DNA of 64,000 bases, from IMG/VR virus record IMGVR_UViG_3300049793_000365; one strand, 5' to 3'; not shown here. Continued below: a report on this DNA, generated by a model with database tools. Origin of the DNA: an uncultured virus (IMG/VR IMGVR_UViG_3300049793_000365) (taxonomy: Duplodnaviria > Heunggongvirae > Uroviricota > Caudoviricetes).

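What the first reader, a model, noticed from the sequence alone, without database searches (positions are those of the whole stretch)
1363..63564. The two tags are mutually exclusive and each tracks a promoter class
Seen: none of the 27 N-tagged proteins carries the C-terminal RDxK tag. C-tagged genes mostly lie in units headed by host-type -33/-7 promoters or the AACT-N15-16-ATATA motif, and none is the first gene after TAATATATA. The two classes are finely interleaved, often as back-to-back promoters (8113/8133, 41705/41744, 47232/47279, and 54519/54531 overlapping). Inference: each accessory gene carries a timing code (promoter) and a matching address code (peptide tag), late/head versus early/unknown destination. 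This would let new cargo domains be plugged into either route.
Basis: partly seen in the sequence, partly recalled or inferred. Interest (0 to 1): 0.85.

Follow-up and report, generated by a model that had tools for sequence, protein, structure and literature searches.

The report, continued
Noticed in passing
window, all three promoter classes (for example 41745-41759, 32438-32445, 36614-36648): Most promoter sites end only 4-7 nt before the start codon: L in 24 of 25 cases and H in 18 of 23. With the published 4-5 nt gap between the -7 element and the transcript start, the first genes would be leaderless. Structural genes in G003 and most late genes in G004 have leaders of 9-40 nt.
   Followed up: partly
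window 59000-60445 (-) and 48624-48698 (-): The phage encodes a full-length cysteinyl-tRNA synthetase (tRNA-synt_1e, E=2e-92). It also encodes a tRNA-Met with its own host-type promoter at 48728-48763.
   Followed up: no
window 55265-55717 (-): A 150-residue Lys/Ala/Thr-rich protein (MKKSKSKTSKTTKNKK ... ARKTARKATAKKAK) that looks like a histone-H1-like or DNA-coating protein. It sits behind an AACT-N16-TATAAT site.
   Followed up: no
window 28092-28514, 28515-28898, 38053-38457, 12313-12657: Internal or N-terminal copies of the C-tag: REEKINTII at residue 70 of 28092-28514, RDCKINDVL at residue 23 of 28515-28898, and RDRQLINIT at residue 7 of 12313-12657. The paralog 38053-38457 starts in the same way as 28515-28898. 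These look like fusions of formerly separate tagged ORFs.
   Followed up: partly
window 60714-60854 and 60838-60999 (-): Two short overlapping ORFs (46 and 53 residues) are 50% identical over 28 residues. Each has an internal C-tag-like REEKLDKIF or RDEKIDKIF. This may be a duplicated or frameshifted gene.
   Followed up: no
window, G003 (L052-L077), G004 (L078-L109): C-tagged genes end in TGA far more often than untagged genes: G003 50 of 131 against 59 of 545, and G004 21 of 71 against 91 of 855. This could reflect ATGA stop-start overlaps in tightly packed early operons, but I did not check the overlaps.
   Followed up: no
G003: L056:17610-18956, L070:1838-2965, L071:1164-2318: Three paralogous peptidases (phrog_4191), of which two have a weak Peptidase_M28 match and the third has no Pfam match. 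One lies next to the capsid gene behind a late site and two lie directly behind host-type sites. They are possible processing enzymes for tagged proteins, untested.
   Followed up: no
phage record LR756501 (735 kb), locus L113: Its capsid protein is 53% identical to G003's, yet the N-tag coding pattern has 0 matches there, against 49 in LR745206. Either the tag diverged or it was lost in that branch. This makes it a useful contrast genome for finding the tags' partners.
   Followed up: no
window 33902-34390 (-): A 162-residue ORF matches only the C-terminal third of a D12-class adenine methyltransferase (profile positions 155-243 of 253). It may be a split or truncated methylase, and it lies in a late unit.
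   Followed up: no
G003 333132 (709 aa) and paralogs at 99876, 114810, 249306, 328309, 363520: One protein family occurs in G003 in three forms: as an N-tagged late gene, as late genes with degenerate N-termini (MINRYNDF, MITNFNKF), and as untagged genes behind host-type sites. This is a natural series for testing what the tag adds.
   Followed up: no
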